Below are positions 24,988 to 56,300 of a stretch of 64,000 bases of DNA, piece by piece (position 1 is the first letter of the stretch; the number at the start of each line of letters is the position of its first letter). The stretch is taken from contig CM060732.1 in the NCBI GenBank assembly GCA_030704615.1, positions 29,078,001 through 29,142,000 on the forward strand, given 5' to 3'. The notes beneath the pieces are model-generated. The model was not told the origin of the DNA, did not search any database, and saw nothing but the letters and a program-made list of their open reading frames with translations. Made by a program: the position numbers and the translations under genes. Source of the stretch: Takakia lepidozioides. Taxonomy: Eukaryota; Plantae; Bryophyta.

Positions 24988-26207
24988 ATGGAGCGGAAAA
25001 TGACAAACGCTTTGGCGGGGGCTAAGTGGACGGTGGACAGGGACAAGCCGAAGTTCAATCGGTGGATCCAAAGCAGGGCGAAAGACACCACGTGGAATTT
25101 GAGGCAGCTAATAAAGACATGGAAGGGTAGAACAACCGAGGGTCGAGTGCCCTCCGCCGAAGCTGAGTTAATGCGGCGTGTTGAGTATTGGGCTTGCTCG
25201 GCAAGTCAGAATTCACATCGCCGGACTAGGGTTGTCCCTTGGAAGGCGGGGTCATCGGGCGGGGGAGGCACAACTGGTCTTTATTACCTGAACTCTATTG
25301 CGAAGGTGGTAGAGATTGGCCCTTACAAAGAAGGAGGGTATGCTAAGGTCCGTCACTGTAGGATTGTTGGTGATTCTAGAATACCGGAGCGTTGGGAGCT
25401 GGCGGGAAAAAAACCCAAGTTCAAAAATCTAGAAAAGACGTTGAAACAACATAAAGACGAGTGTTTGGCAGTGAAGTTCCAACATCCGGGTGTTATTTCG
25501 TATTTTGCTGTGAATGCACGTGAGGTAGAGGGTTACACTCGCTGGTGGAATGGGGGGACAATACGAACCTTGACAGAAAATGGGGCAACGATTCGGACAA
25601 CAGGGTGATTTTGGAACAAAGGGGAACGGAAGCAGAGTTCCAGGAATGCGATCGTTTGCTTCATTTCCGGAAAGTGCGCAGTAAACTTGCATGGGCACTG
25701 GTGTGCATCATGGATGCTGTCCACAAGAACGGTGTCCTGCACAACGACTTGTCCCCCGACAACATGTTGTTGCATTTTCCAGATGGCACCGAGGAGATCA
25801 AGATTGGGGTGTGTGATTGGGGCTTAGCCACCCCATTGGGCATACGCAAAGCCTCGACGTACCAGTTTGAAAACCAAGACAAGCTGGACTGGGAACTCGC
25901 AAAAATATGGTAGGTGGAAAAAGATATTACATCGGTTTTCAATGCGAATGTCATGCCCCCCCTCCCCCATGACATGACGTCGGAGGCCTTTGCCGTTGGG
26001 AAGATAGCGATACGAATAAATGGCGGCGCTCATTATGATCAAAGTATGTTTCAGGACCAATTTACGGGAGGTTGTTGGCATTCAATGCTACAAAGGTTGT
26101 ACGACAACAACAAGAATGAGAAAGTTACATTAGCCCATGTAGTACTTCGGTTCATGGGCAAGCCATTCAATTGGCCTGAGCCGAAAGACGTATATAGGAC
26201 GGAGTAA
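24988..26207 (+). pseudogene. Intronless protein kinase-like pseudogene
   Basis: KEGGYAKV loop, LAGKK, HPGVI, VLHNDLSPDNMLL and VCDWGLA. Frameshift near 25575 and stop at 25911. Confidence 0.85.
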
Positions 26208-28777: not shown

Positions 28778-31052
28778 CTACCACTTGCCAGAGCTTTGCG
28801 ACCGTGATCTCGTGGTCAATGAGGGGCCCAATGACATGTGATCAATTCTGGCCTGCATCTGTCTATTTCGCGGCGAAAGTTGACTTTCTTCTTCACTCTT
28901 ACATCGTGGCGGAGGTGGATCGAGAACAAGTGTTCGGACTGCATGCAAATCGGCAACGATGCCGTCCTCATCCGGCAATACAGCCCCCAAAACACGATGA
29001 TAACGGTCTGTCCATAATCGCCTCCATTTCTCTACAACTGCCTTGATGGTACTTTTGAAACTTTCCAACTGCCTCTCACGGGCCCTGTCCCTAATCATTG
29101 TGTCGTTTCGACGATAAGCCGCCTCGTACGCATCATTCATTTGACGTTGACATATTATAACATCTTCCAGTTCGAGACAGCGACAAATGTCTCCCAATCG
29201 GTTGTCGGTCATACAATTCGTTCTCCTCCGGCACCCATGGAACCTGTGGGAGCTGGATAAACCTGGACCTTCTTTGACTCCAATGCCCCTCCCAGATTGC
29301 GGCAAAACTGCTCTCTCTCCCACCAATCTCAAATACCTCCTGCACATATGGTTATCTCCCAATCAGATGTGACCCAGAAATACTGGGGATCTTTGATGTA
29401 TGCCGGGTTTCCGGCATGTATGTCATGCATCTCTCTGTCTGCATCCCATACCAAGTTCTTGCCCCAATGCACACAATTCAGAAATGTGTATGGTAGCCCA
29501 TCCAATAGGAGGTTGTGTCGATTGTATTCAAAACCTATGGGCATCTGATCCTCCAAGCCCACCAGCTCATAGAAACGGCGATGGATTAGTGTACGGCATT
29601 CTGGGCAAGCGCTCGTCCGCAAGGCTTGCGGGATAAGACATGTAAGATGGAACATATGTCCACATGATCCAAGCACATGACATCCCTCTGGGCCGTATGG
29701 ATTCCTACACATCGAACAAACTGTGCCATCTACTATCCATGACGGCAAAACGCCTTGTGGTATCTCCTCCCTCTGGGCCGGTTTGATGTGGTTGGTCATC
29801 CTTGTTGTGGTGTCCCACTCTTCCTCTATCTCCAATTCCCAGTTTATGCTTCTGTTCGACCCCGAAATTCTGTGCTCACATTGATCGAACATAGAATCCA
29901 CATCTGCCCAATTGGTATACCCGGCGAACACGCTTGATGCGATGCGGAGATCGTTATACCTTTGCATGTTGGGTATAAATGCTATCCACGCTACGGTTCG
30001 ACATGCGTGCGACACGTTGCAAGCCTGACTGTGCCCGTTCTACCCGTGCTTCTCTGGAGGCCAAATGGGTCGCCCATTGTACCCAATTCTCCCAATCGCC
30101 ATTCAATGGGACCCATGCCTGAATCTCCAGCGTTTTGGACAAACGTCATGCAGCTGCCATGACAATGTCCTACTCCTTTGTAACGCGATCGACATCTAAT
30201 ATTGGGTTCATCTCCGATTGAATGGCGACCCTCGAGCATTCCCCGATTTCCAGTACTGGTTCTTTTCTTTTCCTCTTTCTCTCATCCGCAATTCGTTGTT
30301 CCTCAACCATGGTTTCATCGGCCACAGGGTCAAGGACTTCCGTAACTTCCTGAATGATGAGGTCAATACTGCGATCGGGCATCACAAACTCCGCGTCCAT
30401 GTCCACGACATTTGTTCGATCCTCATTGTGGACAACAATGCCATCATTGTTTGGAGGCATGTCTTGCAATCTAGCTTCCAACTCGACTATGCGCAGTGTT
30501 TGCCAGTCTAGTTGGTCCTGCAGGGTCCTGATTCGCTGGTCTCTTTCCGCCAGTTGTTCATCTAAAGTTGCAGCCGGTTGTATTCCAAATCGTATAGCCA
30601 CCTTGCGTTCCTCCTACTGGCAGTTTGCCAATTCATTGGACGCAAGAGTATGACCTCCACGTACAACATGGCTGCCAAAGTGTACAGGATTTGACCTTTT
30701 AAGAGAGGATGACCCCACAATGAGCAATGCACCTCATTCGCCCTATGCTGGAAATGCAAGTTCGTGCAAGACTTGGACTCTGCGTAATTGTTTCGGGTTT
30801 GCACGTCATGCCTATCCAAAGGCCACAATCGATAGATGTGATATCATTTCACGAATTTTTTGCATCTTGCCATCGGCCACCAGAACTCTTCCGAAACATC
30901 CTCCCAGCCCTCTTCTGCTAGTATGTTTGGGTCACCAAATACTTCCCAATTCAAGTCTTGCCTTGACCCTTTGATTTTCTTAGGGGCGGTCCATGTTCAT
31001 TGGGGTCATCTCTTCCATGACGGTCATGTCCTGGCCCTCTGTCATTCTACAA
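28778..31052 (-). pseudogene. Coiled-coil plus RING-H2 protein pseudogene
   Basis: A chain of same-strand ORF pieces with an LDEQLAERDQRIRTLQDQL coiled coil and CSMC...SCGHMFHLTC...CPECR. Confidence 0.7.
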
Positions 31053-31413: not shown

Positions 31414-33073
31414 AGGCGACCGCCAACTTCCAGAAATTAAAAAAATAAGCGACCGCCAACATAGGCGGTCGCTTAATTTTTTTTATTAAAAAAAAAAAAA
31501 AAACGACCGCCAGCATAGGCGGTCGCTTCATTTTCAAAACATTTAAAATAAATAAACGACCGCCAACATAGGCGGTCGCTTCATTTTCAAAATAAGCGAC
31601 CACCAACATAGGCGGTCGCTTCATTTTCAAAATAAGAGACCACCAACATAGGCGGTCGCTTCATTTTAAAAAAATTAAAAAAAAAAATAAGCGACCGCCA
31701 GCATAAGCGGTCGCTTACTTATTTTATTTATTAATTAAATGAAGCGACTGCCTATGTTGGCGGTCGCTTCATTTTCAAAAACTTAAAAAACAATAAGCGA
31801 CCGCAAACATAGGCAGTCGCTTCATTTTCAAAACCTTAAAAAAAATAAGCGACCGCCAACATAGGCGGTCGCTTCATTTTCAAAAACTTAAAACAAAAAA
31901 AGCGACCGCAAACATAGGCAGTCGCTTCATTTAAAAAAAAATTAAAAACAATAAGCGACGGCCAGCAAAGGCGGTCACTTCATTTTCAAAACATTTAAAA
32001 TAAATAAGCGACCGCCAACATAGGCGGTCGCTTCATTTTCAAAAACTTTAAAATAAAGAAAGCGACCGCCAACATAGGCGGTCGCTTCATTTTCAAAAAT
32101 TTTAAAAAAGAAAAGCGACCGCCCACATAGGCGGTCGGTTCATTTCTTTAAAAATTAAAAAAAAATAAGCGACCGCCAGCATAGGCAGTCGCTTCATTTT
32201 TTTTTAAATTAAAATAAATAAGCGACCGCCAGCATAGGCGGTCGCTTCATTTTCAAAACATTTAAAAAAAATAAGCGACCGCCCACATAGGCGGTCGCTT
32301 TATTTTCAGAAAATTTAAAAAAAGCGACCGCGAACATAGGCGATCGCTTCATTTTCAAAAACTTTAAAATAAATAAGCGACCGCCAACATAGGCGGTCGC
32401 TTCATTTTCAAAAACTTTAAAACAAAAAAAGCGACCGCAAATATAGGCGGTCGCTTCATTTAAAAAAAAATTAAAAACAATAAGCGACGGCCAGCAAAGG
32501 CGGTCGCTTCATTTTCAAAACATTTAAAATAAATAAGCGACCCCCAACATAGGCGGTCGCTTCATTTTCAAAAACTTTAAAATAAAGAAGCGACCGCCAA
32601 CATTGACGGTCGCTACATTTTTTTAAAAATTAGAAAAAATAAGCAACCGCCCGGTCGCTTCATTTTCAAAAGATTTAAAATAAATAAGCGACCGCCTGCA
32701 TAGGCGGTCGCTGCATTTTCAAAAAATTTAAAAAAAACAAGCAACCGCCAACATAGGCGGTCGCTTCATGTTTTTAAAAATTAGAAAAAATAAGCGACCG
32801 CCAGCATAGGCGGTCGCTTCATTTTCAAAACATTTAAAAAAAATAAGCGACCGCCCGCATAGGCGGTCGCTTCATTTTCAAAAGATTTACAATAAATAAG
32901 CGACCGCCTGCATAGGCGGTCGCTGCATTTTCAAAAAATTAAAAAAAAACAAGCAACCGCCAATATAGGCGGTCACTTCATTTTAAAAAAATTAAAAAAA
33001 ATTAAGCGACCGACAGCATAGGTGGTCGATTCATTTTCAAAACATTTAAAATAAATAAGCGACCGACAACATA
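31414..33073 (-). repeat. Tandem palindrome array, about 55 bp unit, roughly 30 copies, same family as 5275-5546 but opposite orientation
   Basis: AAGCGACCGCCAACATAGGCGGTCGCTTCATTTTC repeats. The last unit is cut by the LTR at 33074. Confidence 0.95.
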
Positions 33074-33798
33074 TGTCGCGGCCCATTGCCTTGAGGGCAG
33101 GGGGGTCGGGACACAAGAGGGGCTGCCCCTGTGGTGGGGGCAGTAGCAGCGATAGGTACGGGGGCTGAAGCACCCTTGAGTGCCCAAGGCACTCAAGGAG
33201 GCGGAGGCGCTCACTAGGTGGAGCCCCGCACACCGGGTTGCGGTGGGGGTGGCTCCACAAGGGGTGGTGGTAGCTTAGCGGAACTTAGTGGGGGTGGCAT
33301 AGGACTCACCATGGGGTGGAGACCTCGAGGTGGGAGTCGTGGGGAGTCTTGGGACTCATCACGGTCCATTGGGGCCGCGGTGAGTGGGTCAAGACTCACC
33401 GCGACTCACCACCGGGAATCGAGGGTCTTCGTGGTGATTCGGCATAAAATGGCATGGCTGGTTGTGAAACCCCCGCGGACAGCTACAGAAGTATATATAG
33501 GGAGTAGTAACCCCGAGAACGGTGCAAGCCCGTTGGTGACCAAAAACTAGTGAGTAAGCGAGCGAGCCGGAAAGCGACCAAAGAGTGGGGAGCTGTTCTG
33601 AACTGCCAACTACCAAAGGGAATTCCCGCTGGTTCCAAATCGGTGGAGGGTTCTTTGGGAGAACAAAGGGGGACCGTTATGCCCCGGTGAGCAGCCGAAG
33701 CTCCAAGTTGGCCCGGCGGCCAGGTTGGGAGTCAGGCGCGCGCATCAAAGCGAGTAACTATGACTTGAGGGGGAGCTTACCGAAGTGAGGTGCGCGAC
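33074..33798 (+). repeat. Element 2 5' LTR (725 bp)
   Basis: 7 bp terminal inverted repeat. About 8 substitutions and 1 indel versus 39322-39873 by eye. Confidence 0.95.
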
Positions 33799-39321: not shown

Positions 39322-39873
39322 TGTCGCGGCCCTTTGCCTTGAGGGCAGGGGGGTCGGGACACAAGAGGGGCTGCCCCTGTGGTGGGGGCAGTAGCAGCGA
39401 TAGGTACGGGGGCTGAAGCACCCTTGAGTGCCCAAGGCACTCAAGGAGGCGGAGGCGCTCACTAGGTGGAGCCCCGCACACCGGGTTGCGGTGGGGGTGG
39501 CTCCACAAGGGTGGTGGTAGCTTAGCGGGACTTAGTGGGGGTGGCATAGGACTCACCATGGGGTGGAGACCTCGAGGTGGGAGTCGTGGGGAGTCTTGGG
39601 ACTCATCACGGTCCATTGGGGCCGCGGTGAGTGGGCCAAGACTCACCGCGACTCACCACCGGGAATCGAGGGTCTTCGTGGTGGTTCGGCATAAAATGGC
39701 ATGGCTGGTTGTGAAATCCCCGCGGACAGCTACAGAAGTATATATAGGGAGTAGTAACCCCGAGAACGGTGCAAGCTCGTTGGTGACCAAAAACTAGTGA
39801 GTAAGCGAGCGAGCCGGAAAGCGACCAAAGAGTGGGGAGCTGTTCCGGACTGCCAACTACCAAAGGGAATTCC
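39322..39873 (+). repeat. Element 2 3' LTR, lacking the last 172 bp
   Basis: The match to the 5' LTR stops abruptly after GGGAATTCC. Confidence 0.93.
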
Positions 39874-40103
39874 GGGGGCTGCTATTTCATGAGCGGCATG
39901 AGCATGAGCGGGAAAAAAAAAAAGCATGAGCAGACCATTGTGAGTCCACGGAAATAGGGTTAGGAGGCACGGAAATAGGGTCATGTGAAGTTGGAATGTG
40001 GCACCAGTGGACTTGAAATGCAACATTTTATTGCAAATTTTGTGGCAAGCAACGTCTATACAAGTGTGTTCTAACTGTCATAGCCGGAATGGGCACTACT
40101 CTC

Positions 40104-41606
40104 CTACACCCTCCGAGGAACTTGCCCCACCTTCTTCCTCATCCCCTCATCCCCCTCATCCTCCGAGCTCTGTGATGCATCAGTTCCACTATGCCTCTCA
40201 AAAATCCCGTCCTCTCCTTGGGGGACTGTCCACCTCACCTCCTGGGAATCTTCTGCGTCTTCTCCCCCACTTTCCTCAGCAGAATCCAACACAAATCTAC
40301 GAGCCCGACGGGCTTTAATAGCTGCTGCCTCCTCCCTCATCTTCATTTTCTTGAGGCTTGCCTCGTCTAAAATCTGCTGTACACGACTACGTTCGGAACA
40401 CCTCCTAACGGACACCGAAGCAAGCCGGGCAGCATAAGTAGGAAGGATGTACTCCCTTTCTGCACTAGGCATGAAATCCCCCCTGGCAAAAAAAGGCACG
40501 TTCCTCCTGCCATGAACTCCGGTGTAGACGTCCCTCCGGCAGTACTTGGCATCCTACAGTAAGAACAAATCCACTTGAAGAATGTCAATACCAGCACAAC
40601 CAGAAAGGGTTTTCAATGAAATAAGAGAGCGGAGGGAGGTGCCTCACAAAATTTGGAGGCAACTTACAATGCCACCACTCACTCGTAAACCGGGGGCTCC
40701 TCGGCCTCGATCCCAACTTCCTCCCCCTGCTCCTTCTCGGATTTTTCCTCATCCTCCGAGGATGCCTCTTCCTCTTTCGGCAGACGTTCAGCCGCTGCAA
40801 GTTCCGAGTTGTGGAGGGCAGTATCTGGCTCGAAGGCGAACACATGCCTGTCGGACAACGTCCCTGCCCACATTGAAGCACCTGAGGAACAAAGCGGGCG
40901 GTTAATAGCTTGCGGCATGCAATTGCAATGGGGCCAGGGGACAAACTGAGCACGTGAAGGCTTACCCGTGCCGCATGTGAGGTCTAGAATCCGCCCTTGG
41001 ACATCCGAGCACGTCTCCATGAGGGTTTGGATGAAAGCAGGGCTCCGGGTCCGGCTGTACCGCCACGGTTTGCCTGTCTTTGTGTCCTTCGGCATACTAG
41101 AGTTGGGCACATAGTTGTAGAGGACATCGTAGGTTACAGGGTCCACATCGGCATCAACAAGACGACCGTCGTTGCGGAATATGAACGTAGACCCTCTCTT
41201 CACAAAGCAATATGCCTCAAACACCAATGTCTGCACATCCAACAAAGAAGGGATCAATTCCAGGGTCTACTTAACATACACCACAATATGAAGTGAATGC
41301 AATAGATTGATAACTTACACTTTGGCCCTCTGTTCGCAACCCCTGCGTACTGATGCAGAACCATTTTCTGAGGAGGACCGGGGTGACACTTTTCGGTGTC
41401 CACCTTGCCACCGCATTCTCTGTGGTCTTCCCTCTCGTGGCAAGGACAACCACACATCCACCGTCATCCAGAAGCATCCCCGCCAGCCCAAACCCGGCTT
41501 TCCAGTAGTCCTCAGTAAACCTGTTCCAGGTGGGCACACCATCCAGGCCCTCCAGCAGCTCCCCATCTGGAATGTCAAGGAGAATCATGTCGCAAGCTCT
41601 CTCCAC
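40104..41606 (-). CDS. Spliced beta-class amino-methyltransferase-like domain (copy 2) plus a final exon
   Basis: DMILLDIPDG (41562-41591) sits at the DPPY position. Then GKPWRYSRTRSPAFIQTLMETCSDVQGRILDLTCGTG, GT-AG intron 40882-40965, ASMWAGTLSDRHVFAFEPD. Confidence 0.65.
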
Positions 41607-42469
41607 CTCAACCCCCCCCCCGAGTGCTCTTGCAATTCGTGCTCACAGCCGTGAAGAATTCCATCATGGCTTCAAAACCAGGGGTGTCTTTAGGCTCTGT
41701 ACCGGCAGCCCTCTTCTTGGCTTTCCCCTTCTGCTCCGCCAGAGACTTGTTGTGTGCCACCTTCTTCGCCCTGGCAGCGAGAGCGTCAAGGAAGCTCTCA
41801 TTGACGCATTGGATGATGGTTGGAGGTTCTAGCTTTGGCATGTGCGTAAACGTCACCGCCGAATACCGCCGTGTAGGCTCGCCCTCAAAAGCCAACTTCT
41901 TGGCAGAGTCAGTCCCACTCCGAATTGACTTGGGAACCCGGACGACCGGTGACTGGGTAGGAGCAACAGCAGTCGCAGGACCTTGAACAAAATCGGCGTC
42001 GGAGTCACTCTCTTGGGTCCCCTCCTGCGCCTCCTCCGATGCCCCGATGGTTTTCTTCTTTTTGGGTGTTACTGCAGTCACCTGTTTCCTTGTCCTTTTC
42101 CTTTGACTTTACTCTTCTCATGCAATTTCTCCTGAATTCCTGCCTGAGCAAGCTCTGCCGCTTTCCTGGAGTTCGCAAGCGCTTTTGCCTCTTTTGCACC
42201 CAACGGAGGCCGCGGAGCCCGGTTTCGTCGGAATTCAGCATCCAGCTTCAATTGAAACTCGGATGGGTCGAGCGAGCCGGGCGGAAGGTCCACATACCAA
42301 GGGCAATCACGCAAATGTTCCAGATGCCACTCCTTCACAATATCGTCAGTGTACATGGAGTCAGCCCCAGGGTTCCTCCATGCCAGGAAGAATGGTGGCT
42401 CGAAAGACAGATGACCTTTCTCCAAAAGCGAGAACTTACAATACCTGCATTCATGAAAAACACAATGAG

Positions 42470-43075
42470 GTCTGAAAATGGCTAAGTCCCTGAACGGCAT
42501 AGGGCCTACAACTGGAATATGGCGCCGAATTTCCACTTCAGGGCCACCCAGTCTAGAGACTTAGCTCGAAAATGGCCAAGTCCCTGAACGGCAATACGGC
42601 CTGGAACTGGAAAATGGCGCCGAATTTCCAGTTCAGAGGCAGCCAGTCTAGGGACTTAGCCCGAAAATGGCTAAGTCCCTGGACGGCAATAGGGCCTAGA
42701 ACTGGAAAACGGCGCCGAATTTCCAGTTCCGGGCCAGCCACCCTAGGGACTTAGCCCGAAATGGCTAAGTCCCTGGACGGCAATAGGGCCTAGAACTGGA
42801 AAACGGCGCCGAATTTCCAGTTCCGGGCCAGCCACCCTAGGGACTTAGCCCGAAAATGCTAAGTCCCTGAACGGCAATAGGGCCTAAAACTGGAATATGG
42901 CGCCGAATTTCCACTTCAGGGCCAGCCAGTCTAGGGACTTAGGCCGAAAATGGCTAAGTCCCTGAACGGCAATAGGGCCTGGAACTGGAAAATGGCGCCG
43001 AATTTCCAGTTCCGGGCCAGCCAGTCTAGGGACTTAGCCATTTTCGGAGCCCGACTGGAAATTCGGCGCCATTTT
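42470..43075. repeat. 94 bp tandem repeat, about 6.5 copies, two palindromes per unit
   Basis: GGGACTTAGC-N9-GCTAAGTCCC and CTGGAAAA(C/T)GGCGCCGAATTTCCAG, with period 94-95. Confidence 0.93.
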
Positions 43076-43096
43076 CCCTAACACCACTTGAGGCCT

Positions 43097-45225
43097 CTAA
43101 CATCCTGAAATGCCAGGACTTGAAAGAAAGGCAGCGCGTATGTACCTATACAGAAGGCGCATTGATGCTTTGTCCGCGTTCGGCTGGTCGGTGAACTCGT
43201 GGCTCCGGCGAGCATCTGCTATCTCCCGAAAGAATAGGTTGGTTTTGTAGAGCAGAAAGTACCTCGTCACATAGTCACGTAGGCTCTCTGCTGCAGGAGA
43301 TATCTCCATCTTGAACTGATGTGCTTGTGTGTCCAGCTGCTCTTGCGCATTCGTCGTCACCTGTGGAGATTGTCCATCAGATCGCTTCCTCAAAAATACA
43401 ATGAATCCACCCCTACTAGAGTAGAAGCCCAAACGAAGCGTGGGGAAGTACTGAAAAACACCATGTCATGCGGTTCATCCACATGTCGAATGTGGGGTCA
43501 GAGAGTTTGTCCGGTTTGGGGAAGCTCCAAATGTCCCTGGTACTTTGGGAACCATTCTAGATTTGGAGCCACCGGGTCTGTCCAACCACCCAGCATATTC
43601 GTAAGCGCCAAACACCACAAAAAGGAGTTGTTGCCACCACAATTTGGTAAGAATGTATCACCTTTTCTGTTGCATCCACAAAGGATGTGGCTAGACAATG
43701 GAGCTTTCCAATGTCATCGTGGGCTTCAGAGCGCGAGAGTAGTGCTTCCCCACCTCCACCAGAAAGTCGGCACCAAGGGCGGGATCAGCTATGGCCACGT
43801 ACTTTACCATCCGCGACTTGTACTTTATGCGGGCCCTCACCTCCGCAGCTTTGACATACGATTCGAGTTCCGGGAGGGTTGGATTCTTCTCCTCTGACTC
43901 CATGTAGAACCTCCGCGCATGTGCCAAATCCTGCTGTATTTTCGTCTGTCGAAAAGGCGCACATAAGATTAGAGATCCTGCTCAACACAATTTCTTCTAT
44001 TGGGGGAGAGAGACAGACTAGCTCAACAAAACTGTCAGGAGCTTTACCCGAAATATGTGGTCCACCATGGCGTCGACGCTCAGCCTTATACCAGGTTCTG
44101 TCTGCCTTTGCCTCCGACTTGCGCAGGAGGTCGGCACTGAGGGAATTGGCAAACTCTTGCACCCCCTGCTTCCCGACATCCTTCACTCGGAAGAGCATAT
44201 GGACAAGTTGGTGGCAATGAAGGCATTCTCAGTCACCCTGCAGTGCCACATTTCCATCAAACAATACTGAAATGGGAATTTTCATCATATATGAGGATTC
44301 GCAATGAAATGACTTCCAAATTCAAAGTCCAAAGCGAGAGGGGTTGTAGCTTACGAGTTGATGTCGCCATTGCAGCTTGAGAAGACTGCGATCTTTGGGC
44401 CCCGCAACCTTCAGCACAACACAATCGACGGCGAAATGCCAATCGAGATCGTTGGGGTGGGCTTGGCAATGTGCTCCATCCATGCCAGGAGGTGATTGCT
44501 GTCCCACACGTAGAACATCTTGCCGACATGTGCTGGAAAAGAGGATCACTAGCAATCGATCTCTCGAACTCCTCATTTCACGTTTGCCAATGGGGACCCC
44601 ATTTGTCCACCTCATCGGAAGTGTGGGCACGGGAAGCTCCGTGGTCGTTCTCAATGGAAACGTAAAAGGCGGCAGACCCCATTCGATATCCATCCCGAAA
44701 GAGAATTTCAGCTTGTCGATATCGCCTGGGAGGGCAGGTCTCACCACCTGCAATGACACCAAGCGGCAAAGGGAATTCGAAGCTGGCGGGTACACCATGC
44801 CCCCCAGCACCCTGCCAATGTTGCTGTGGGTTGCCTCCAACATCTTGGCAGCGGCCAACTTCATATCCGCCTCAGACATGACGTCTGCTGCAGAGGGGTT
44901 TTCCGGCAGCCCACCAGGACCGCCAAATCCAGCCTGTATGCTCCGGGTTTGGGGCCTGGGGATGTCCGGGGGATGTCATCCTGGTCAGAAACCTCCATGT
45001 CGTCCTCCTCAACAGGTCAGCCACCTGCGAAACCACCTCCAGCACTCTCGTCGTCTCTACTGCCCTCTCCCTGGCTTCACCTCGAACTTGCACAATCCGT
45101 GCTCTTTCAGGTGTTCTTTCCTCTCCTCCACTCTCCACCGTATGGGTAATTGCGGGGGCTGCTCTTGCCCGCGATGGTCTAACCGGTGTGCTACTGCCTC
45201 TCTGTGGTGTCTTGTAGGGATCCAC
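43097..45225 (-). pseudogene. ParB/Srx-like N-terminal domain and linker, frameshifted, upstream of MTase copy 2
   Basis: Joining frames gives VRPALPGDIDKL..F.DGYRMGSAAFYVS...KMFYVWDSNH-LLAWMEHI..HPNDLDWHFAVDCVVL. WDSNH resembles the ParB DGxHR motif. Confidence 0.5.
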
Positions 45226-46544
45226 CGTCTCTGTGGTCCCTCGCTTACATTGGCATCTGTCATTTGGGCACCCCTGGCCTCTTCAGCTGCCTTTGTCTTT
45301 CCTCCTGGCTAGCATTCGTCTCGTCTGTTCTTTTGCCCTCTCTTTTGCCCTCTCACGGGCTTTCTGTTTCTTACTAGGGCTAGCAGCAGGGGAGCCCTCC
45401 AGGACGACCACCTTTGATTGAGGCGAACTGACACCCTCGCGCGCACTGCTCACTCCCCCCTCCGCAGCCCGTGACTGCTCTCTCGCCGGGGATTGCATGT
45501 GCTTAGCTTTCTTCTTTTTCTTTGCGGGGCGGGCCCTACTGCATGTGCATGAACAACCTCCATTGCCGGATCTGCTGTCCTCATGTCCTCACGCCCTTCA
45601 CCTGCCATGCCACCTGCAATCAACCTCCCCAATGCCTACCCTGTCGTAATCTCGTTGCAAGTCCTCCCGTCCACCAACAAAAGGTTTAAGTTTGCCCTCT
45701 CGCCCCAAGTTGGCGATTCAAACATGCGATGAGTTGGAGCTGTCGATGATACCACCAGCGTGCCGGGCTCGTCGTCACTCTGTCATTGACAAAATCGTGA
45801 AAACCAACATCGGTGCAAAAAGCAGCATCGCAACGAGCAGCGCAACCACCATAGCAACAATCATGTAGCAAAAATGAAAAACATAACAAGTTTAGGAAGT
45901 ATGGAGAGCCATGCAACAACAATGAAAACAAATGCAACCATTGCCTAAGAATGACATGCACAAGCAGCCTTCTCCAGAGCTGCCGGATTTGCACACGCAT
46001 TGCAAAAATCTAAGGTTCACTCAACTATCTAAAGTCACTCATACAGCAAGCCAGGATGAAGATGCAAAACAAAGCGAGGTAACAAAGCGAAAGCAAAAAA
46101 TAAATCGAACAAACCGAAAGCAGAAGTGACTTGCCTGAGAGTACTCGGCTTCAGTTGGCGGAGGTTGTGAGCAGACACTGGAATCTCCTGCTGGAGCTTC
46201 AGTTTGGCCATGCGAGAGATTGGCCGTCGTCCGTAGACTTTCAAGAGCTTTCAACTTCCGCCGCGGTCTGGATGTGAGGTCTCTCTCAGGAGAGCCACGC
46301 CCTTCAGGCGGCATAAGTCCCAGCCAAAAAGATCTCCTTTTTTGGGGTACATGCCTGGAATACCATGTTAAGCCAAGTTTAGCATGAGATTTAGGGTACG
46401 TGTCCAGGAAGCCATGCGTCGCCAGCCCGATAATAACCGACGGCCGTCGACATTTATTGCCCAACTGCGCAATTAAATGTCGGATGAAGCCCTCCATGTC
46501 GGATGAAAATCGACGTAAACAGTCCCGGAATTTCCAACGTAGAG

Positions 46545-47795
46545 GTAATTCGGAGCGCTGCACGATGGAATTCCGGCGCCGGATTTCCATCCTGCAGGTA
46601 ATTCGGAGCGCAGCAGGATGGATATCCGGCGCCGAATTTCCATCCGCGGAGGAAGGCCGGCGCTGGAAATTTCCCTCACGCAGGTAATTCGGAAGCGCGC
46701 GGATGGAATCCGCCGCCGAATTTCCATCCGCGGAGGTAGGGCGGCGGTGGAAATTTCCCTCATGCAGGTAATTCTAGCGCGCGGATGGAAATCCGGCGCC
46801 CAAATTTCCATCTGCGGAGTTAGGGCGGCGCCGGAAATTTCCCTCACGCAGGTATTCGGAAGCGCGCGGACGGAAATCCGGCGCCGAATTTCCATCCGCG
46901 GAGGTAGGCGGCGGTGGAAATTTCCCTCACGCAGGTAATCGGAAGCGCGCGGACGGAAATCCGGCGCCGAATTTCCATCCGCGGAGGTAGGGCGGCGCCG
47001 GAAATTTCCCTCACGCAGGTAATTCGGAAGCGCGCGGATGGAAATCGGCGCCGAATTTCCATCCGCGGAGTTAGGGCGGCCCGGAAATTCCCCCACGCAG
47101 GTAATTGGAAGCGCGCGGATGGAAATCCGGCGCCGAATTTTCCATCCGCGGAGTTAGGGCGGCGCCGGAAATTTCCATCACGCAGTAATTCGGAAGCGCG
47201 CGGATGGAAATCCGGGCCGAATTTCCATCCGCGGAGTTAGGGCGGCGCCGGAAATTTCCCTCACGCAGGTAATTCGGAAGCGCGCGGATGGGAAATCCGG
47301 CGCCGAATTTCCATCCGCGGAGGTAGGGCAGCGCCGGAAATTTCCCTCACGCAGGTAAATTCGGAAGCGCGCGGATGGAAATCCGGCGCCGATTTCCATC
47401 CGCGGAGGTAGGGCGGCGGTGGAAATTTCTCTCAGGCAGGTAATTCGGAAGCGGCGGATGGGAATCCGGCGCCGAATTTCCATCCGCGGAGTTAGGGCGG
47501 CGCCGGAATTTCCCTCCGCAGGAATCGGAAGCGCGCGGACGGAAATCTGGCCGCCGAATTTCCATCCGCGGAGGGAGGGCGGTGGTGGAATTTCCTCAGA
47601 AGGTAATTCGGAAGCGCGCGGATGGAATTCCGGCGCCGAATTTCCATTCGCGGAGTTAGGGCGGCGCCGGAAATTTCCCTCACGCAGGTAAATTCGGAAG
47701 CGCGCGGATGAAAATCCGGCGCCGAATTTCCATCCGCGCAGGTAGGGCAGTGCGCCAAATCCATCAAGCAGGTAATTCGGCGCCGAAGTTCCTCC
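46545..47795. repeat. GC/CpG-rich 84 bp tandem repeat, about 15 copies, running into the gap
   Basis: The unit contains GGATGGAAATCCGGCGCCGAATTTCCATCC. GCAGGTA recurs about every 84 bp. Confidence 0.95.
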
Positions 47796-47810
47796 TGCAG
47801 TATTCGAATC

Positions 47811-48310
47811 NNNNNNNNNNNNNNNNNNNNNNNNNNNNNNNNNNNNNNNNNNNNNNNNNNNNNNNNNNNNNNNNNNNNNNNNNNNNNNNNNNNNNNNNNN
47901 NNNNNNNNNNNNNNNNNNNNNNNNNNNNNNNNNNNNNNNNNNNNNNNNNNNNNNNNNNNNNNNNNNNNNNNNNNNNNNNNNNNNNNNNNNNNNNNNNNNN
48001 NNNNNNNNNNNNNNNNNNNNNNNNNNNNNNNNNNNNNNNNNNNNNNNNNNNNNNNNNNNNNNNNNNNNNNNNNNNNNNNNNNNNNNNNNNNNNNNNNNNN
48101 NNNNNNNNNNNNNNNNNNNNNNNNNNNNNNNNNNNNNNNNNNNNNNNNNNNNNNNNNNNNNNNNNNNNNNNNNNNNNNNNNNNNNNNNNNNNNNNNNNNN
48201 NNNNNNNNNNNNNNNNNNNNNNNNNNNNNNNNNNNNNNNNNNNNNNNNNNNNNNNNNNNNNNNNNNNNNNNNNNNNNNNNNNNNNNNNNNNNNNNNNNNN
48301 NNNNNNNNNN
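47811..48310. other. Assembly gap (500 N)
   Basis: Run of N. Adjacency across the gap is unproven. Confidence 1.
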
Positions 48311-48962
48311 GCATCACTAATCCTCCTTCATCGTGCTCTCCGATCTCCGCTTCCGCCTGACTCCCAAGTCCTCCCCGAATAATGATCTCATCATAATCCC
48401 CGTTCTTCCCTTTATCTCCTCCTATCCCCGCGGTTCTAACCGTTTCCCTCTCTAACCGTCGTATGTGAACTAACATGTTCCCTTCTCTGGTGTTGTTCCC
48501 CACAGTTCGTTCCCTGTCCTACTCTTCGTTCCCTATTATCGTGACAGCTGTGTCAAGCGGTGACTGGCTGTGTTTGGCTTGTCGGGCTGTGACTGGCTGT
48601 GTGGCTATGCCGGGCTGTGACTGGCTGTGTGGGCTGTGTCTGCTGTGACGACTGTGACGGGCTGTGTGGGCTGTGTGGGCTGTGACGACTGTGAAGGGCT
48701 GTGTGGGCTGTGACGGCTGTGTGGGCTGTGTGGGCTGTGACGGCTGTGTAGGGCTGTGTGGGCTGTGTGGGCTGTGGGGCTGTGTCGGCTGTGTGGGATG
48801 TGGACGGCTGTTGACGGGCTGTGTGGCTGTGTGGGTTGTGTAACCCCCTTCTACAGTGCTCTGCTGTCACCCCTAGGGTTCCTGTGTCTCAGTCTGATGC
48901 AAAATTAAGGGTACCCTACAGATCCCGTATAAGTGTCTAAGTCCCCTACAGTCCTCTAAACA
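48311..48962 (-). repeat. Element 3 3' LTR (partial) with GGCTGTGTG-type simple repeats
   Basis: Matches 60447-61095, with length variation in the simple-repeat tract. Confidence 0.9.
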
Positions 48963-49027
48963 TTTCCCGCCCCCTCAAAAGCCGTGTCTCACGTTTACTG
49001 TTTCGAGTAGCAAAACTTTGTGAGTGA

Positions 49028-52000
49028 TCACTTTGTGAAGTTGAGAGTTCGTGGTGGGCTGTGTGTACGAGCCGAGGTCTGTCCAAAGAGTGGGGTACCA
49101 ATTACTGGTGCCGCGTGCAAGTATTTCCATGCGATATGTCCCTTATAGAAAATGTCATCAAGTCCGAATTTCTGTGTTGACAAATTGTTGCAGGCTGCTT
49201 GAAACCATGAACGAATTTGAGAATCCTTCTGTATCATAACTTTTGGGTCATATAGGTACATATGAGGTGGCACCGAAGGTAATACCCAATGATCTCCCAC
49301 TGGAGTAACTTTGAAAGCGTGCTTGCATCTTTTGTTGCTCAATGTGGTAACGTATCAGAAAACAAGCAGCGTAGTATAGCCCGCACCCCATGACAATACT
49401 TGCTATCTCCTTGGTCTTGGTATAAATGAGTCCATGTACACCTGGAAAGCAACCAATTCCCTCAACATTGTACCTGCCTCGTGCCAGTATTGTGCAAAGT
49501 GATGATCTTCAATATGTCGATTGTTTGGAAGAACTTTAGTCCTGGTTGCCACTGGCAGCCAAATACGCATGATTTGGTAGTAATGTGCGAATGACTGCGG
49601 AGGACTAAATTCTTTCCAAGCCAAATCCAACATGAATGGAATTTGGTTGAAGGGCATAATCATAGCCCTACTGTACTCCCTGGCAGCTGGAGTTTAGGTG
49701 GGTTAAAAGCTGCATTGCCCATACCTCCGGCTGTGGTGGCTGTGGTGTGGTTGTAGTAACCACAGGTTCAGTTACTGGTACACTGACCTGTTGTGGTGGT
49801 GTGGTAGTGGTTCCTGTACCATTGGCATCTCTTGCACCTCCTGTGAAGACTGAAAAAGCCAGAGTTCTGGCTTTCAAATAAGAAGCCATTAGCTGTTCCC
49901 GAGGGATATAGACTTTGGTCGATGTTTGAAGTGAGGTCTTCCACTTGAGTCTGGAGTCCGTCTACATCCTCTTGTAACTCTGCTATCCTACTATAGACAT
50001 TGTCTATAGTAGTTGTGGCAATGTTCTGCACCTGCAGTCTAGCTCATTCATCTCGCTTTGGGTGAGCTTCCGTGGGCTTTGCCTTCTACTGGCCCTTGTG
50101 CTAGCCAGACCTGCATAAGGCTGTTATCCACCAAGCTGCTTGTGGTTCCCCTGAGAGTTTGCTCCTCTCTTAGCTTATACAATTCCAACTGCTGTTGTAA
50201 ATCCTTCATGCGCTTCGCCTGTGGCTCAACCAATTGCGCATAGGCAACAAGAGATTATTGGCTTCTTTCGAAGCCTTGTTACTGATTGAGATTTCATTTC
50301 TATTGGCCACGATGTTTTGTTGCAACTCCACGATGTATTTCTCATTCTCAGCTTCCATCTGCCTGTATTGCTTGAGAGTATCTTCATTGCGACAGATTGT
50401 ATTCTTCATATCGACAATGAGCTTCATGTGCTCCGCATTCTCTTCTTCTGCCTTCGTACATTTTTCCGCTTGACTGTTTATTTCTTTTGTTGATTGGTCA
50501 AGCATAGTTGTAATTGTAGCGCATTGTATTGCCATCCTGTTATGCACTGTTTGCAACTCCGTATGTAGTGCATTCAGTTCTTGCAACTTGCTTTCATGCT
50601 GCACCTGCATTTGGTATAGCTGTTGCTTATGTGCTTCGTGCAACTGGTCTTGCGCGAGGCCTGCCTCAATCAATTGTTGCTTGGCTAATTGCAAAGCCAT
50701 TTCTGTATTGGCCAAGTCCTGCTTCATCTTGAGAGTGACCTCTTCATCGACCTTGTTTGCACACTCAGTGGCAAGTCGAGCCTCAAACTCCTTCCTGAGT
50801 TCTTCTTTCAAGGCTGTCAATTGGGTAATTGGAACATGGGTTTTGACATAAGTCCCCAACAAATTAAGTGTCCTGCCTATGGAACTCATCAGCATTTCCT
50901 GTTGAGGGTCATCATGGTGAGGTTGCTGCTGTTCCTCCCGATCTTCAACAGTATGATGTCTCACTAACCATTCAGACCATTGTCCCACCGGATTTCTTCC
51001 TGAACTACTTCATTCATGACCGGTGCTACAGTGTCATGGCCTTCTGCCTGTGGTACCTCCAACACAGGTGTGTGCATTATATGCACCTCAGGATTTCCTT
51101 TGGGCAACTGTTGCACCTCTGGGATTTCTGTCTCCTTTACCAGACCAGAATATTCATAGAGAAGGTCCCCTTTCTCTATTTCTGCCACTATCTGCTCTGT
51201 AGTTGGAATCTCTATCCCTTCACTTTCCAAATCAATTATTTCGGTTGAGCTGCATGGATAACTTGTGACCTTGTGACAAGTCGTTCAAGTGGCTGTGTTG
51301 GTTGTGATGCAGAAGTAACTTCTTCCTCCCTCTCTGAAGGTCCTGCTTCCAGTAATAACATTCTTTTGTGCTGCTGTGCCCCTTCCTGGTTATGAGCTTG
51401 GGAAACATTATCATGCGGAATCCGTGAAGCCAGTGGATCCGCCACTACAGTCTTTCCCTTCTCTGCCTCTTAGTCTCTGGTTGTGCTGCTAGTCCACCCT
51501 CACTGTGTGAAGAGCCTTGCTCTTCCATTGCAGTTGTTTCTGGCTCAAACACTCCCATTTCCTTCCTTTCTTGTGCATTAAGTATGCCCGAACTAAGGAT
51601 TATTTGAGCAATGATTGGGCCAGACACTATGATAGGAGATTTTGCGGTAGTACTTGTAATCTTTTCATCTCCTCTACCAGTGCGTTGTACATTATGTCCG
51701 CCCATAGTACCTCTTGTCCCTTCAAGCCTTTGAGGATTTCCTCTGTGAAGGATTTGCTCAAATATTGTTGGTTCTGTTTCAGGGCAATCAGAACGTTCAA
51801 TACTTGGCTTATGTCTTTTAACCCTGGGTACACAGCTTTGGTACAAGCATAACCCTGAGTTTTAAAGAAACTCCCTTCTTGGAATAAATCCCCTATTTGC
51901 AGTCTTTCCCTGTGTTCTTCCACATACACATGACCTGCTGGCAATTGAAACAATTGCTGGAGGTATAGGGGAGTAATCATTAATTCAACTCCCTTCACCG

Positions 52001-52259
52001 TTGTTGTTCCTGTCTTTGGCTCAAAGTTCTGCAAAAATTGTAACATGTACTGTCTATGGTGTAGTGTCCAATCCTTGCTTTGCAATCCTTCCAATCTCAG
52101 CTCCTTCAGTATCTTTATCGCCTGTGGGGTAGCCATCGTTTGTTTCTGCAGAATGGTGGTGCTCTTCACCCTGATTTCCTCCATTCCTCTCACTCTCTTC
52201 ATCTTAGACTCACCAGAACTGCTTTGGCTGTAACAACTGCAGGAATGCCTGTAGTGCAC
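49028..52259 (-). pseudogene. Element 3 extra 3' ORF(s): retrotransposon accessory-like domain plus long coiled coil
   Basis: Consecutive minus-strand ORF pieces linked by frameshifts. FLQNFEPKTGTTTVKGVELMITP..LQQLFQLP region, and a heptad-rich segment at 50206-50988. Confidence 0.6.
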
Positions 52260-52894
52260 AAAGCAGAAACGTATGGTTGCCGCAGAAAGCTATGGGTAAC
52301 CTCTTGTAAGCCTGCGGGGCTTGCAAGCATTGTTCAAGAGAAAAGCTCTGCTCTTTCGTTTCGTGTCTCTGCCACTGCGTAAGTAATATTGCGAGCGTAA
52401 TGTCTGTTAGTTCCTCCATAGTTTCCAAGTTATAGCATTTATGGCCTGTCCTGTCGAGACGCCCGTTACTCTGAACGACGCCGCCTCTTGCGCTCAATTT
52501 CCCTCCATTTTCTTGATCATTTTCTGGTTTTCTATTGGCTGTGGCCGCTGTGACTGGATTTTAACTTTTATCTTCTTTAGTGGACTTTCCCTGTTGGATA
52601 GTCCACTAGGATCACACATGCGACATGAATTCGGCTTTTCTGTACTTGCCGTTGTTCTGTTTCCCTTTTTCCCTTTTCCGCATTAATGGGTCCGCCTTTC
52701 ATCCCTTTTGACGGCCGTTCTTGTCCTCTTTCTTTTTGACACCTGTCCTTGCACTTCATTCTCTGCTGTGTGTCGCACCCTGACCTCCACGTGTCTATTT
52801 TAAATTAATTTCCGTTTCTTCTTCCTTCAGCCATTTTACTGAAGTTTTTATGTGTCCACTTGTCACTGATTCTATGGATCGTGTAACTTTAGTA

Positions 52895-53340
52895 GGCTGT
52901 CTTGAGCTGTGATAGGCTGTGTTGCACTGTGGTAAGCTGTGATAGGCTGTGACACGCTGCGGTAGGTTGTGATAGGCTGTGTCACGCCTTGCTGGGGTTG
53001 TGGTTGGCTGTGTCACGTCGTGACGGGCTGTGATAGGCTGTGTCACGTCGTGACGGGCTGTGGTAAGCTGTGTTGCGCCTTGTGGGCTGTGGTGGCTGTG
53101 TCACGTCGTGATGGGCTGTGATAGGCTGTGTCACGCCGTGATGGGCTGTGATATTCTGTGGTGCGCCTTGCTGGGCTGTTGGTGTGTCACGTCGTGATGG
53201 CTGTGATAGGCTGTGTCACGCCGTGATGGGCTGTGATATTATGTGGTGCGCCTGCTGGGCTGTGGTTGGCTGTGTCACGTCGTGATGGGCTGTGATAGGC
53301 TGTGTCACGCCGTGATGGGCTGTGATAGGCTGTGTCACGT
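52895..53340. repeat. About 30 bp tandem repeat after integrase
   Basis: GGCTGTGTCACG(T/C)CGTGATGGGCTGTGATA units. Confidence 0.88.
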
Positions 53341-56300
53341 TTGTTTTGCCCACCCCGGTCATATATACTGGGCCTAGCGACAAGTGTTCCATACTCCGTT
53401 CGTAACACTGGTGCAGCCCGTGACTGCTCTTGCGGTTCAACATGCAAATCATGTTGCAGGGGTTTGTCATGGATACCACTGTACCCCTTCAACTTATTTG
53501 CATTGACTCTTCCCAGCATTTCCTTGTTAATGGTTTGTAACATGGCTGTGTTGTTATCATACATCTTTTGTATGACATAAGGTCCTTTCCATGGTGATTT
53601 AAGCTTAGAAGCTTGAATCTTTCCTTTCTTCTGCAACCATAAAACCAAATCCCCCGTCTTAAAAGTCTTTAATTTGCCTTTATCAAACTGTTCCTTTCGC
53701 TTCATCTGAATTCTGGTCATATTATCAGCTGCATCAGCACGTACTTCTTCCACATGGTATAATTCATGTTTCCTGACCTTGATGGAGTCTTGCAATTCCA
53801 TTCTTTTTCCCACTCTGTTCTCATGGTAGGTAACAGGAATTCCACTGGAAGTAAGGCTTCCATACCATAAACTAATTGGAATGGTGTATACTTAGTGGTG
53901 ACTTTATATGAAGTCCTGTATGACCACAAAGCTGTCAGCAGCTTTGTATCCCAATCCGTTCTGTTTGCATTGACTATCTTAGCCAAGATAGTACATAGTA
54001 TTTTGTTGGTAGCCTCTGCCTGTCCATTACCCTGTGGGTAATATGTTGTACTCTTTCTATGCACAATCATAAACTCTTTAGTCAATAACTCAATGGTCTC
54101 ATTCATGAAGTGACTTCCTTGATCACTGATAAATTCTAAGGGACATCCAAATCGTGTAAGTATGTTCTCGTACAGGAACCTTGCTGTGGACTTGGCTGTG
54201 TTGTCCCTCAAAGCTTTAGCTTCCACCCACTTTGTAGTATAATCAGTGGCTGTAATTATGTACCTGTTTCGTGTATTCTTGGATGGTGGATTAATTGGTC
54301 CAACAAAGTCTAGTCCCCATTTCTGAAATGGTTCCGTAGGCATTGTAGGATGCAAGGCATTCTTCCAGATCTCTGCAAAGGTCCTAGCCTCTGACATTCA
54401 TCACACTTCTGACAATACTCATGTACATCTTTGAACAACGTAGGCCACCAGTATCCTGCGAGTAGTATCTTTCTACTGGTAGTCTCTTCTCCAAAATGAC
54501 CTCCAGCCACTCCTTTATGAACTTCCTCCAAGACTTTATTTACTTCATGGTGGTACAAGCATCGTTTTAGTACTCCATCAGGTCCTAACTTATACATTCT
54601 GCTTCCTACCATAGTATAAGGTAAAGCTCTGATAGCAATTCTTTTCCTTTGCTCCTTACCATAACTAGGTGGGCACTGACCATGAGCAAGGTAGTATCTG
54701 ATTGGCCACTGCCAATCTAACCATTCATCTGCACTTCCTTGCACCTCCATTACAAATAAACTCGCATCAGGTAACTGATCGTCCACTCCTGTGGCGGCCT
54801 CTCCTGTTGTTAGTCGTGACAAATGATCTGCCACAAGATGCAAACGGCCAGGCTTGTAAATAACCTCGAACTCAAACTCATGCAAGATTATTAACCACCT
54901 CGCTATCCTTCCACTTATCAAAGGTTTGTTCACCAGATATATCAGAGCCTGGTGATCCACATAAAACATAAACTTTCTTCCAATAGGTAATGCCTGAATT
55001 TCTTCACTGCATAGATCATTGCCAATGCTTCTCTTTCCGTTGTGCTATAGTTCCTCTCAGCACTGTTCATCAACCGGCTAGCATAGTACACAGGTGAATC
55101 TATATTCCCTGTAACATTCTGGGCTAACACCGCTCCCAATGCTTCTCCTGATGCATCGCAGTGAACATGAAATACTACATGCCAGTGAGGGTTAATCAGC
55201 ACAGGTGTAGTTGTTACTGACAGTGTAAGTTCCTCAAACGCCTGTTGACATTCAGCTGTCCATGCAAACACTGCATCTTTCTTCAGAAGCTTGCTCAATG
55301 GTGCTGCTATTTGTGCATACCTTTTGACAAATCTTCTGTAATAACTGGTTTGCCCAAGGAATCTCCTTAAACTCTTAACATTCACTGGTGGTGGAGAGAC
55401 TTTAATGGACTCTGTCTTCCTGGGATCCACAAGAAGTCCCTTCTTACACACTATGTGTCCCAGAAGCACCCCTGAGTTCACACAGAAAGTACACTTCTCT
55501 GGATTCAAGCCCAGACCTCTCATCCTGCATCTGGCCAGGCATAACTCCAATTTATGCAAGTGCTCATTCTTAGAGCTGTACACACTGAAATCATCCAAAA
55601 ACACCTGCATGAAATCATCCAGATACTCTTGAAAAGATTCACTTATCACTCTCTGAAAGGTCGCTGGTGCATTACAAAGTCCAAAGGGCATGACTTTGTA
55701 TGCATAAGCCCCCCAGTCTGTGATGAAAGCTGTTTTCCCTTGGTCTTCTTCTGCCACTTGCACTTGATTATAACCACTGAAGCCATCCATGAATGAGTAC
55801 ATCTCATGGCCTGCCACAGTGTCTAATACTGCTTCTGTGAATGGCAAAGGGAAAGGATCTTTCTTCGTACAAGCATTCAGCTTCTTATAGTTCACACATA
55901 CTCTTAGTTTGCCATTCTTCTTGGGAACTATAACAATGGGTGACAACCAAGTTGTATACTCTATTGGGTATATAAACTTAGCCTCAGCCAACTTCTTTAT
56001 CTCTTCTCCAACCTTCTGTGCGTAGTTGGGATTCATTCTATACCTCGCCTGCTTGATTGGCACTGACCCTGGTTCCAGTTCAATTTTATGCTGACAGACT
56101 TCAGGTGGTATCCCTTTTAGATCCTCATAGCTCCAAGCAAATACATCTCTGTATTTGATGAACAAGCTTTTAGCTTCTTCGAAGAATTCCGGCTCCAAAT
56201 CAGCTCCTACTTTCACCATCCTTGGTTCCTCCGGAGTTCCCACATTTACTTCTCTCACCTGCTCATCAGCTGTGATTGTCCAACCAGTCACCACTTCATC

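What the first reader, a model, noticed from the sequence alone, without database searches (positions are those of the whole stretch)
40104..45225. Spliced ParB-like plus beta-class amino-methyltransferase gene on a putative mobile element
Seen: on one strand, a YVWDSNH-LLAW segment, linker exons, DMILLDIPDG and a C-terminal LDLTCGTG..RH...E.D block, in catalytic-before-SAM (beta) order and with GT-AG introns. Known: ParB-MTase fusions are common in phages and bacteria, and horizontally acquired beta-class 4mC methylases function in bdelloid rotifers and Marchantia. Inference: a prokaryote-derived 6mA/4mC-type enzyme, or a catalytically altered derivative since DIPD replaces (D/S)PPY, has gained introns and travels on a eukaryotic element recent enough to interrupt a young LTR. 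The ParB call rests on joining frames by eye.
Basis: partly seen in the sequence, partly recalled or inferred. Interest (0 to 1): 0.85.

Follow-up and report, generated by a model that had tools for sequence, protein, structure and literature searches.

The report
Plant transposon pseudo-methylase with private palindromes
This is a damaged copy of a highly repeated, spliced plant gene whose tail is a true relative of bacterial DNA-methylating enzymes but lacks their catalytic signature, so it is likely not a working methylase but a likely jumping-gene protein that is predicted to bind the repeated DNA palindromes of its own element, a design already proposed for seaweeds.

Summary
The gene is real. 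Contigs of RNA-labelled runs skip its introns. Read across its breaks it gives one 1,189-aa frame. Both C-terminal halves align to bacterial beta-class amino-methyltransferases (HHalign 97.4%, E 1.6e-11). DIPD sits exactly on DPPY, is shared by other copies, and a distant relative has QFPD. The SAM motif lacks its Phe in 14 of 15 family rows. A pseudo-enzyme is therefore likelier than a 6mA/4mC writer. The ParB call rests only on the YVWDGNHR motif; three profile tests found nothing beyond it. The gene sits in a very high-copy repeat that abuts a cut 3' LTR; the far end is lost in an assembly gap and no transposase was seen. One palindrome fills both an intronic and an upstream tandem array, and two other family remnants in the window each lie beside a different palindrome. 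Best reading: a VANC-like, self-recognising transposon accessory protein. The architecture is published for Ectocarpus Sola1-1 and red-algal Plavaka; nine searches found no land-plant report. This scan has already noted the same family in other plant genomes. This copy carries a CpG-derived stop.

The parts
39322..39873 (+). 3' LTR of a chromodomain Gypsy element, cut after 553 of 726 nt
   Evidence: 98.4% to 5' LTR 33,074-33,626; 5' LTR runs on to 33,799 with a primer-binding site at 33,802
39874..39918 (.). likely end of the element carrying the gene
   Evidence: LTR match stops here; X8 and X11 contigs carry 39,872/4-39,918 between other flanks (table 7); only one copy in the window
40104..40553 (-). 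last exon: conserved basic tail (PFFA..LPTYA) and acidic end; stop at 40,104-40,106
   Evidence: tail aligns with L001, 0 of 500 shuffles as high; approximate splice joint
40683..40881 (-). exon: end of motif I, RH..AFE strand, acidic linker
   Evidence: donor could also be 40,667
40966..41230 (-). exon: motif X region and degenerate motif I (DLTCGTG)
   Evidence: exact splice joints; 13 family homologs among 16 hits; Atlas N6_N4_Mtase clusters
41319..42444 (-). exon: aromatic-rich segment, basic/acidic linker, and motif-IV half of the MTase fold (DIPD at 41,565-41,576)
   Evidence: HHalign puts DIPD on DPPY; Atlas N6_N4_Mtase clusters
42474..43078 (.). 95-bp tandem array inside intron 42,445-43,145; each unit holds the GGAA-N-GGCGCCGAATTTCCA palindrome and a second inverted repeat
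   Evidence: intron skipped in X8
43146..43360 (-). exon of the middle region, no family match
43452..43945 (-). exon of the middle region, no family match
   Evidence: part covered by a spliced X11 contig
44048..44237 (-). exon following the ParB-like segment (introns predicted, not seen spliced)
44355..45617 (-). 5' coding exon: low-complexity region, then the ParB/Srx-like motif (44,479-44,515); private stop at 44,578-44,580; start codon not fixed
46530..47810 (.). 84-bp tandem array upstream of the gene with the same palindrome core; runs into the assembly gap 47,811-48,310

Best explanation
This is a decaying copy of a spliced, high-copy plant gene with a beta-class amino-methyltransferase fold that has lost the catalytic signature; it is likely the accessory gene of a large DNA transposon, and its intact form is predicted to bind the element's own palindrome arrays through a likely ParB-type N-terminal part and would thereby shield or activate the element, probably without adding 6mA or 4mC itself. 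Shown: splicing, one reading frame, MTase homology in beta order, eroded motifs IV and I, high copy number, a shared palindrome in two arrays, deamination-type damage in this copy. Inferred, with my odds: DNA-transposon cargo 0.8; ParB fold 0.7; no canonical methyl transfer 0.7; binding of own palindromes 0.55; anti-silencing outcome 0.4.
For: Homology: HHalign of a 13-row family alignment against 14 bacterial PF01555 proteins, 97.4%, E 1.6e-11, 185 columns; best of 30 column shuffles 0.7%. Each half alone retrieves N6_N4_Mtase clusters at 0.90-0.92. Eroded motifs: DIPD here, with only a synonymous variant among the listed rows; QFPD in L001/L002; motif-I Phe absent in 14 of 15 family rows and present in 13 of 14 bacterial rows. 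In EcoP15I the motif-IV Tyr stacks on the flipped base (PMC4490356); SPPY to APPA abolishes N4CMT activity (PMC8885841). Repeat: 51,030 contigs of one run lie on 6.7 kb. Palindromes: 34 of 35 half-site hits in the window fall in the two arrays. Two more family remnants each lie beside another palindrome: 10 copies at 61,235-62,535 and 9 matches at 252-2,559. Precedent: Ectocarpus Sola1-1 accessory protein, Bostrychia PAG3 with arrays of inverted repeats, Arabidopsis VANC.
Against: ParB: no profile signal beyond the motif; no Pfam hit. No transposase, second end or target-site duplication was seen. Motif IV was seen in only two lineages. Atlas shared-feature counts (141-162 of 256) are below the 170 typical of same-family hits. 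The two arrays may share ancestry, and tandem copies are not independent, so shuffle counts overstate significance. A 53-bp palindrome array pair (5,268-5,560 and 31,435-33,073) has no such gene detected with it, so palindrome arrays also occur without this gene. This copy shows CG and CHG deamination, so it was not protected from methylation. No binding or activity was measured.
Confidence: 0.45

Rival explanations
1. The protein is an active but non-canonical amino-methyltransferase, or the inactive half of a dimer with a paralogue that keeps an aromatic motif IV, and marks the element with 6mA or 4mC.
For: Fold, motif-X Lys/Arg and the acidic SAM-contact residue are kept. Beta-class enzymes work as dimers with divided roles, as with METTL3/METTL14 (PMC4490356). 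An unchecked scan note reports a DIPY relative in another plant (e1-10418562).
Against: No aromatic at motif IV in either lineage seen; motif-I Phe lost in 14 of 15 rows; no intact-motif paralogue found in the window.
Confidence: 0.22
2. The palindrome arrays are binding sites of a transposase or are self-amplified satellites, and the gene is cargo with another job (for example RNA or protein binding) or a passenger.
For: Palindrome arrays occur in the window without this gene (53-bp arrays). The upstream array could be subterminal, since the end lies in the gap. The ParB fold is unproven.
Against: One array lies in an internal intron about 2.6 kb from the visible end. Three divergent members each have their own palindrome nearby. 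Tail and intron positions are conserved in a relative with 25% identity, which argues against a neutral passenger.
Confidence: 0.22
3. The unit is not a cut-and-paste transposon but another kind of repeat (Helitron-like element, endogenous large DNA virus piece or segmental amplification), and the LTR was cut by a deletion.
For: No transposase or second end in view; the missing 173 nt of the LTR are not in the window; one X11 contig joins LTR letters 39,800-39,871 to the gene interior, which is unexplained.
Against: A sharp boundary at 39,874 whose first 45 nt recur between other flanks and with another inner sequence in two runs; spliceosomal introns; no relative among viral contigs.
Confidence: 0.11

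Closest known systems
Sola1-1_Ec32 accessory gene of Ectocarpus (PMC12477816; passages and supplement rows read)
   Same: Predicted ParB-like plus N4C/N6A methyltransferase protein of 1,104 aa in a DNA transposon, proposed to bind and modify its own element
   Different: Brown alga; described as a predicted methylase, whereas motifs IV and I are eroded here; AACCG termini there, a G-run end here; sequence homology not tested
Plavaka accessory genes PAG2 and PAG3 of Bostrychia (10.1101/2025.02.11.637652; section 8 and passages read)
   Same: ParB-like accessory protein next to tandem arrays of inverted repeats; PF01555 domain on the same element
   Different: ParB is fused to a 2OG oxygenase and the methylase to SET, in two genes; here one gene joins both parts
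VANC anti-silencing proteins of Arabidopsis VANDAL transposons (PMC5735166; abstract read)
   Same: Transposon protein with family-specific targets that form tandem repeats
   Different: Activity shown by experiment there; no homology tested and no activity shown here
Beta-class amino-MTases, PF01555 (CcrM, EcoP15I Mod, DpnA; passages of PMC6787082 and PMC4490356)
   Same: Fold and motif order
   Different: (D/N)PP(Y/F/W) becomes DIPD or QFPD; FxGxG becomes LTCGTG; introns; long N-terminal extension
Rotifer N4CMT and Marchantia MpDN4MT1 (PMC8885841 and 10.1101/2021.02.12.428880; passages)
   Same: Eukaryotic, prokaryote-derived 4mC-type methyltransferase domain
   Different: Active host enzymes with SPPY/TSPPY at one or two loci; this is a high-copy repeat gene without that motif
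Shigella VirB (PMC10770331; passages)
   Same: Functional analogue only: a ParB-type clamp that loads at a palindrome and counters silencing
   Different: Bacterial, no MTase fold, CTP-dependent loading shown; nothing of the kind is shown here

Membership tests
Beta-class amino-MTase (PF01555) | Profile homology over both halves | tested here: met
   HHalign 97.4%, 185 columns; homolog P0014 PF01555 E 7.6e-6, 26.5 bits against a 26.7 cut-off; window exons alone have no Pfam hit
Beta-class amino-MTase (PF01555) | Motif IV before motif I | tested here: met
Beta-class amino-MTase (PF01555) | Motif IV (D/N/S)PP(Y/F/W) | tested here: not met
   DIPD here, QFPD in L001/L002
Beta-class amino-MTase (PF01555) | Motif I FxGxG | tested here: not met
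   Phe absent in 14 of 15 family rows; the glycines and the downstream acidic residue are largely kept
Beta-class amino-MTase (PF01555) | Methyl transfer to N6-A or N4-C | not testable with these tools
   needs an assay or modification data
ParB/Srx N-terminal domain (PF02195) | Core DG-x-H/R-R motif | tested here: met
   Other copies read YVWDGNHR; the same motif lies in phage and bacterial domains with weak ParB_N hits (E 0.009-0.06) whose profile matches canonical ParB at 93.8%. This copy has lost the Gly and the Arg.
ParB/Srx N-terminal domain (PF02195) | Profile match beyond the motif | tested here: inconclusive
   No signal with a 15-sequence ParB profile, with the motif masked, or with the insertion cut out; the query was one damaged sequence
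ParB/Srx N-terminal domain (PF02195) | HTH parS-binding domain, CTP binding, clamp loading | not testable with these tools
   no foldable intact sequence was available
ParB-MTase accessory genes of DNA transposons (Sola1-1_Ec32 type) | Lies in an element with two ends, a target-site duplication and a transposase | tested here: inconclusive
   One sharp end, high copy number, cut LTR; other end in the gap; no transposase among the 56 ORF scans
ParB-MTase accessory genes of DNA transposons (Sola1-1_Ec32 type) | Sequence homology to the algal protein | not tested
N4CMT / MpDN4MT1 host 4mC writers | SPPY motif, low-copy host gene | tested here: not met
VANC-type anti-silencing system | Sequence-specific binding and hypomethylation of own element | not testable with these tools
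   candidate target arrays are present

The most novel reading that the evidence does not exclude
Land-plant DNA transposons carry a eukaryotic ParB/parS-like system: a CTP-gated clamp loads at the family's private palindrome, slides along the element and uses a dead methyltransferase fold to grip or open DNA and keep host cytosine methylation off; protein and palindrome diverge together, family by family.
Probability: 0.15. Interest if true: 0.85.

Novelty: new variant of a known kind. Interest (0 to 1): 0.52.

Why it matters
Only VANC is shown to let a plant transposon resist silencing in a sequence-specific way. A widespread, bacterial-derived alternative with candidate target sites already in hand would be directly testable, and could give sequence-specific chromatin tools. 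The eroded motifs also warn that such genes are not evidence of 6mA or 4mC in plant DNA.

Tried and rejected
No whole genome is held, so copies and ends could not be counted. Three word-index protein searches for longer proteins found nothing, which is weak evidence; no spliced full-length homolog was obtained. PDB sequence searches gave only weak DpnA hits (E 0.12-0.48). AlphaFold of the L001 SAM half had pLDDT 49.8 and Foldseek found nothing: no verdict. No phage record matched P0014; no viral contig held a relative or the end sequence. The tree separates 15 family rows from 14 bacterial rows by a long branch and names no donor; its w62k row was mis-framed in its first part, so its position is ignored (correct frame). 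No run is on record as RNA; X8 and X11 are guesses. I first read the X11 joint 39,871 to 43,637 as a terminal inverted repeat and withdrew that: its 72 letters are LTR. The summed contig depth is not a copy number. The ParB motif search selected for the motif, so matches to it are circular; 6 distinct domains were used, while L006 and L007 (duplicates) and the 9 other genome hits, which did not look like such domains, were left out.
Full report
Observation. No whole genome is held, so I laid public contigs on the region. In run X8, which the tool guesses to be RNA, one 770-nt contig spans three exons with introns 40,882-40,965 and 41,231-41,318 removed exactly, at 16 other letters and no gaps. 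Approximate skips cover three more introns in X8 or X11. DNA runs X1 and X6 show none of these joints. A close copy is therefore transcribed and spliced. The two introns next to the ParB-like exon are predicted only.

One gene, damaged copy. The window frame is broken many times. With placeholders at 18 small gaps (11 listed in other contigs, 3 read from loose ends, 4 inferred by me) eight exons from 44,969 to 40,104 give 1,189 aa with one internal stop; the other frames have 36 and 48 stops. About 215 further codons of low complexity lie upstream and were not resolved. Many gaps are probably assembly errors: three X6 contigs differ by 10 gaps but only 2 substitutions over 810 nt, and the region runs into a scaffold gap. 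Other changes look real. The stop at 44,580 is CGA in all depth of X3 and X6 (the single X8 contig does not show that base), and the Ser in DSNH is Gly in 99-100% of depth. Both are CpG transitions. Of 27 listed variants that I picked from truncated tables, 13 are deamination-type, 4 at CG and 5 at CHG, as expected for a methylated plant repeat. Other notes call the genome a moss; I did not test that.

The methyltransferase half. A full-library search with the SAM exons gave 16 hits, 13 of them family members and 3 unrelated repeat proteins. They are exon-sized gene calls, unnamed or 'hypothetical'. One scores against PF01555 at E 7.6e-6, just under the cut-off. A metagenome scan gave three loci of one distant family. 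L001 and L002 show both halves, with an intron at the same place after the motif-IV exon and the same C-terminal tail. The joined model scores 10.6 bits on a profile of 19 bacterial PF01555 proteins, above all 200 local shuffles. Profile against profile gives 97.4%, E 1.6e-11 over 185 columns. DIPD falls on DPPY and DLTCGTG on DPFxGSG, so the beta order is confirmed. Each half alone retrieves N6_N4_Mtase clusters in the Atlas, with shared-feature counts below the usual same-family level.

Catalysis is doubtful. Motif IV is defined as (D/N)PP(Y/F/W) and motif I as FxGxG (PMC6787082, passages). The Tyr stacks on the flipped base (PMC4490356, passages), and SPPY to APPA removes N4CMT activity (PMC8885841, passages). 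Here the fourth residue is Asp in both lineages that I could see (DIPD, QFPD). The only listed variant near it is synonymous. The motif-I Phe is missing in 14 of 15 family rows but present in 13 of 14 bacterial rows; the acidic residue after the next strand is kept. This is a conserved fold with a conserved non-canonical pocket, not random decay. Two lineages are a small sample, and an unchecked note reports DIPY in a relative elsewhere.

The ParB half. Other copies read YVWDGNHR. The same string occurs in phage and bacterial domains with weak ParB_N hits, and their profile matches canonical ParB at 93.8%. But the window segment gave no score above noise on a canonical ParB profile, none once the motif was masked, and none from its N-terminal part when the insertion was cut out. 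The query is a single damaged sequence, so this is inconclusive, not a refutation.

The element. 51,030 contigs of one run lie on 6.7 kb, so this is a large and diverse repeat family; a copy number cannot be given. The Gypsy 3' LTR stops after 553 of 726 nt, at 98.4% identity to the 5' LTR, and new sequence starts at 39,874. Its first 45 nt recur in X8 and X11 between other flanks and with another inner continuation, which fits an element end and perhaps an inverted terminus. Six X6 contigs closest to this copy differ by 15 substitutions in 2,165 nt (0.7%; two more diverged listed contigs left out), which fits an insertion no older than the LTR pair. The far end, the rest of the LTR and any duplication are not in view (gap 47,811-48,310). 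No transposase appeared in the ORF scans. The superfamily is unassigned.

Palindromes. Earlier notes prompted this check. A 95-bp array in intron 42,445-43,145 and an 84-bp array upstream share the core GGAA-N-GGCGCCGAATTTCCA: 13 exact matches, 7 and 6, and 34 of 35 looser half-site hits. Two other family remnants in the window sit beside different palindromes. Against this reading, tandem copies are not independent, the two arrays may be related, and a fourth palindrome array pair has no such gene detected.

Mechanism. The most likely reading is a transposon accessory protein that recognises its own element at private palindromes and protects or activates it, with the MTase fold serving as a DNA-gripping module. 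Splicing, fold, motif loss, repeat status and arrays are shown. Transposon cargo, ParB fold, binding and anti-silencing are inferred (joint confidence 0.45). Rivals are an unusual or partner-assisted methylase (0.22), arrays unrelated to the protein (0.22), and a non-transposon repeat (0.11).

What is known. [quoted passage not shown] Bostrychia Plavaka has ParB-like PAG3 beside arrays of inverted repeats (section read; bioRxiv supplements are closed and may bear on this). VANC is the tested precedent (abstract) and VirB a bacterial analogue (passages). A 2016 survey says land plants show few N6A-MTases and the passages I saw do not list this family (PMC4738411). Nine searches found no land-plant report; subscription journals and repeat databases are outside the library. 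This scan has noted the same family, including the pseudo-methylase and private-palindrome reading, in other plant genomes; those notes are unchecked and are not counted as support.

Verdict. Real, spliced, homologous to beta-class amino-MTases but not a member by its catalytic motifs; ParB membership open. A new variant of a known kind. Interest 0.52; the bold ParB/parS anti-silencing clamp reading has probability 0.15 and interest 0.85.

Noticed in passing
window 62,687-63,660 (+) with array 61,165-62,560: Second, divergent member of the same MTase-like family (35% identity, introns at the same two places, DLSMGTG), next to a tandem array with its own palindrome AAACAGTGTGC-N6-GCACACTGTTT, 10 copies. 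Its motif-IV exon was not found.
   Followed up: partly
window 1,284-1,715 (+), palindromes 252-2,559: Third, broken member (SAM half only), with a dispersed palindrome AGTCGKTGCCGACT, 9 matches against 0.48 expected, and a RING-finger frame just upstream.
   Followed up: partly
window 5,268-5,560 and 31,435-33,073: Inverted pair of 50-53-bp palindrome arrays, possibly the subterminal repeats of another large element; between them lie a kinase-like frame (24,871-26,200 +) and a RING frame (29,329-30,039 -).
   Followed up: partly
window 16,919-18,996 (+): C5 cytosine methyltransferase frame (PF00145, E 1.9e-13) after a protease-like frame; fits the DNMT-carrying Gypsy family that other notes on this genome describe.
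   Followed up: no
window 39,871 / 43,637: One X11 contig joins LTR sequence ending at the same point where this LTR is cut to the interior of a diverged gene copy on the other strand. Chimera, rearrangement or hot spot; unexplained.
   Followed up: no
L004:4588-10176, L005:13-8904: Very long multi-domain phage proteins carrying ParB-like domains with the FYVWDGNHR motif.
   Followed up: partly
window 48,311-61,093: A second Gypsy element on the minus strand, LTRs 97% alike, whose first LTR copy begins at the gap.
   Followed up: no
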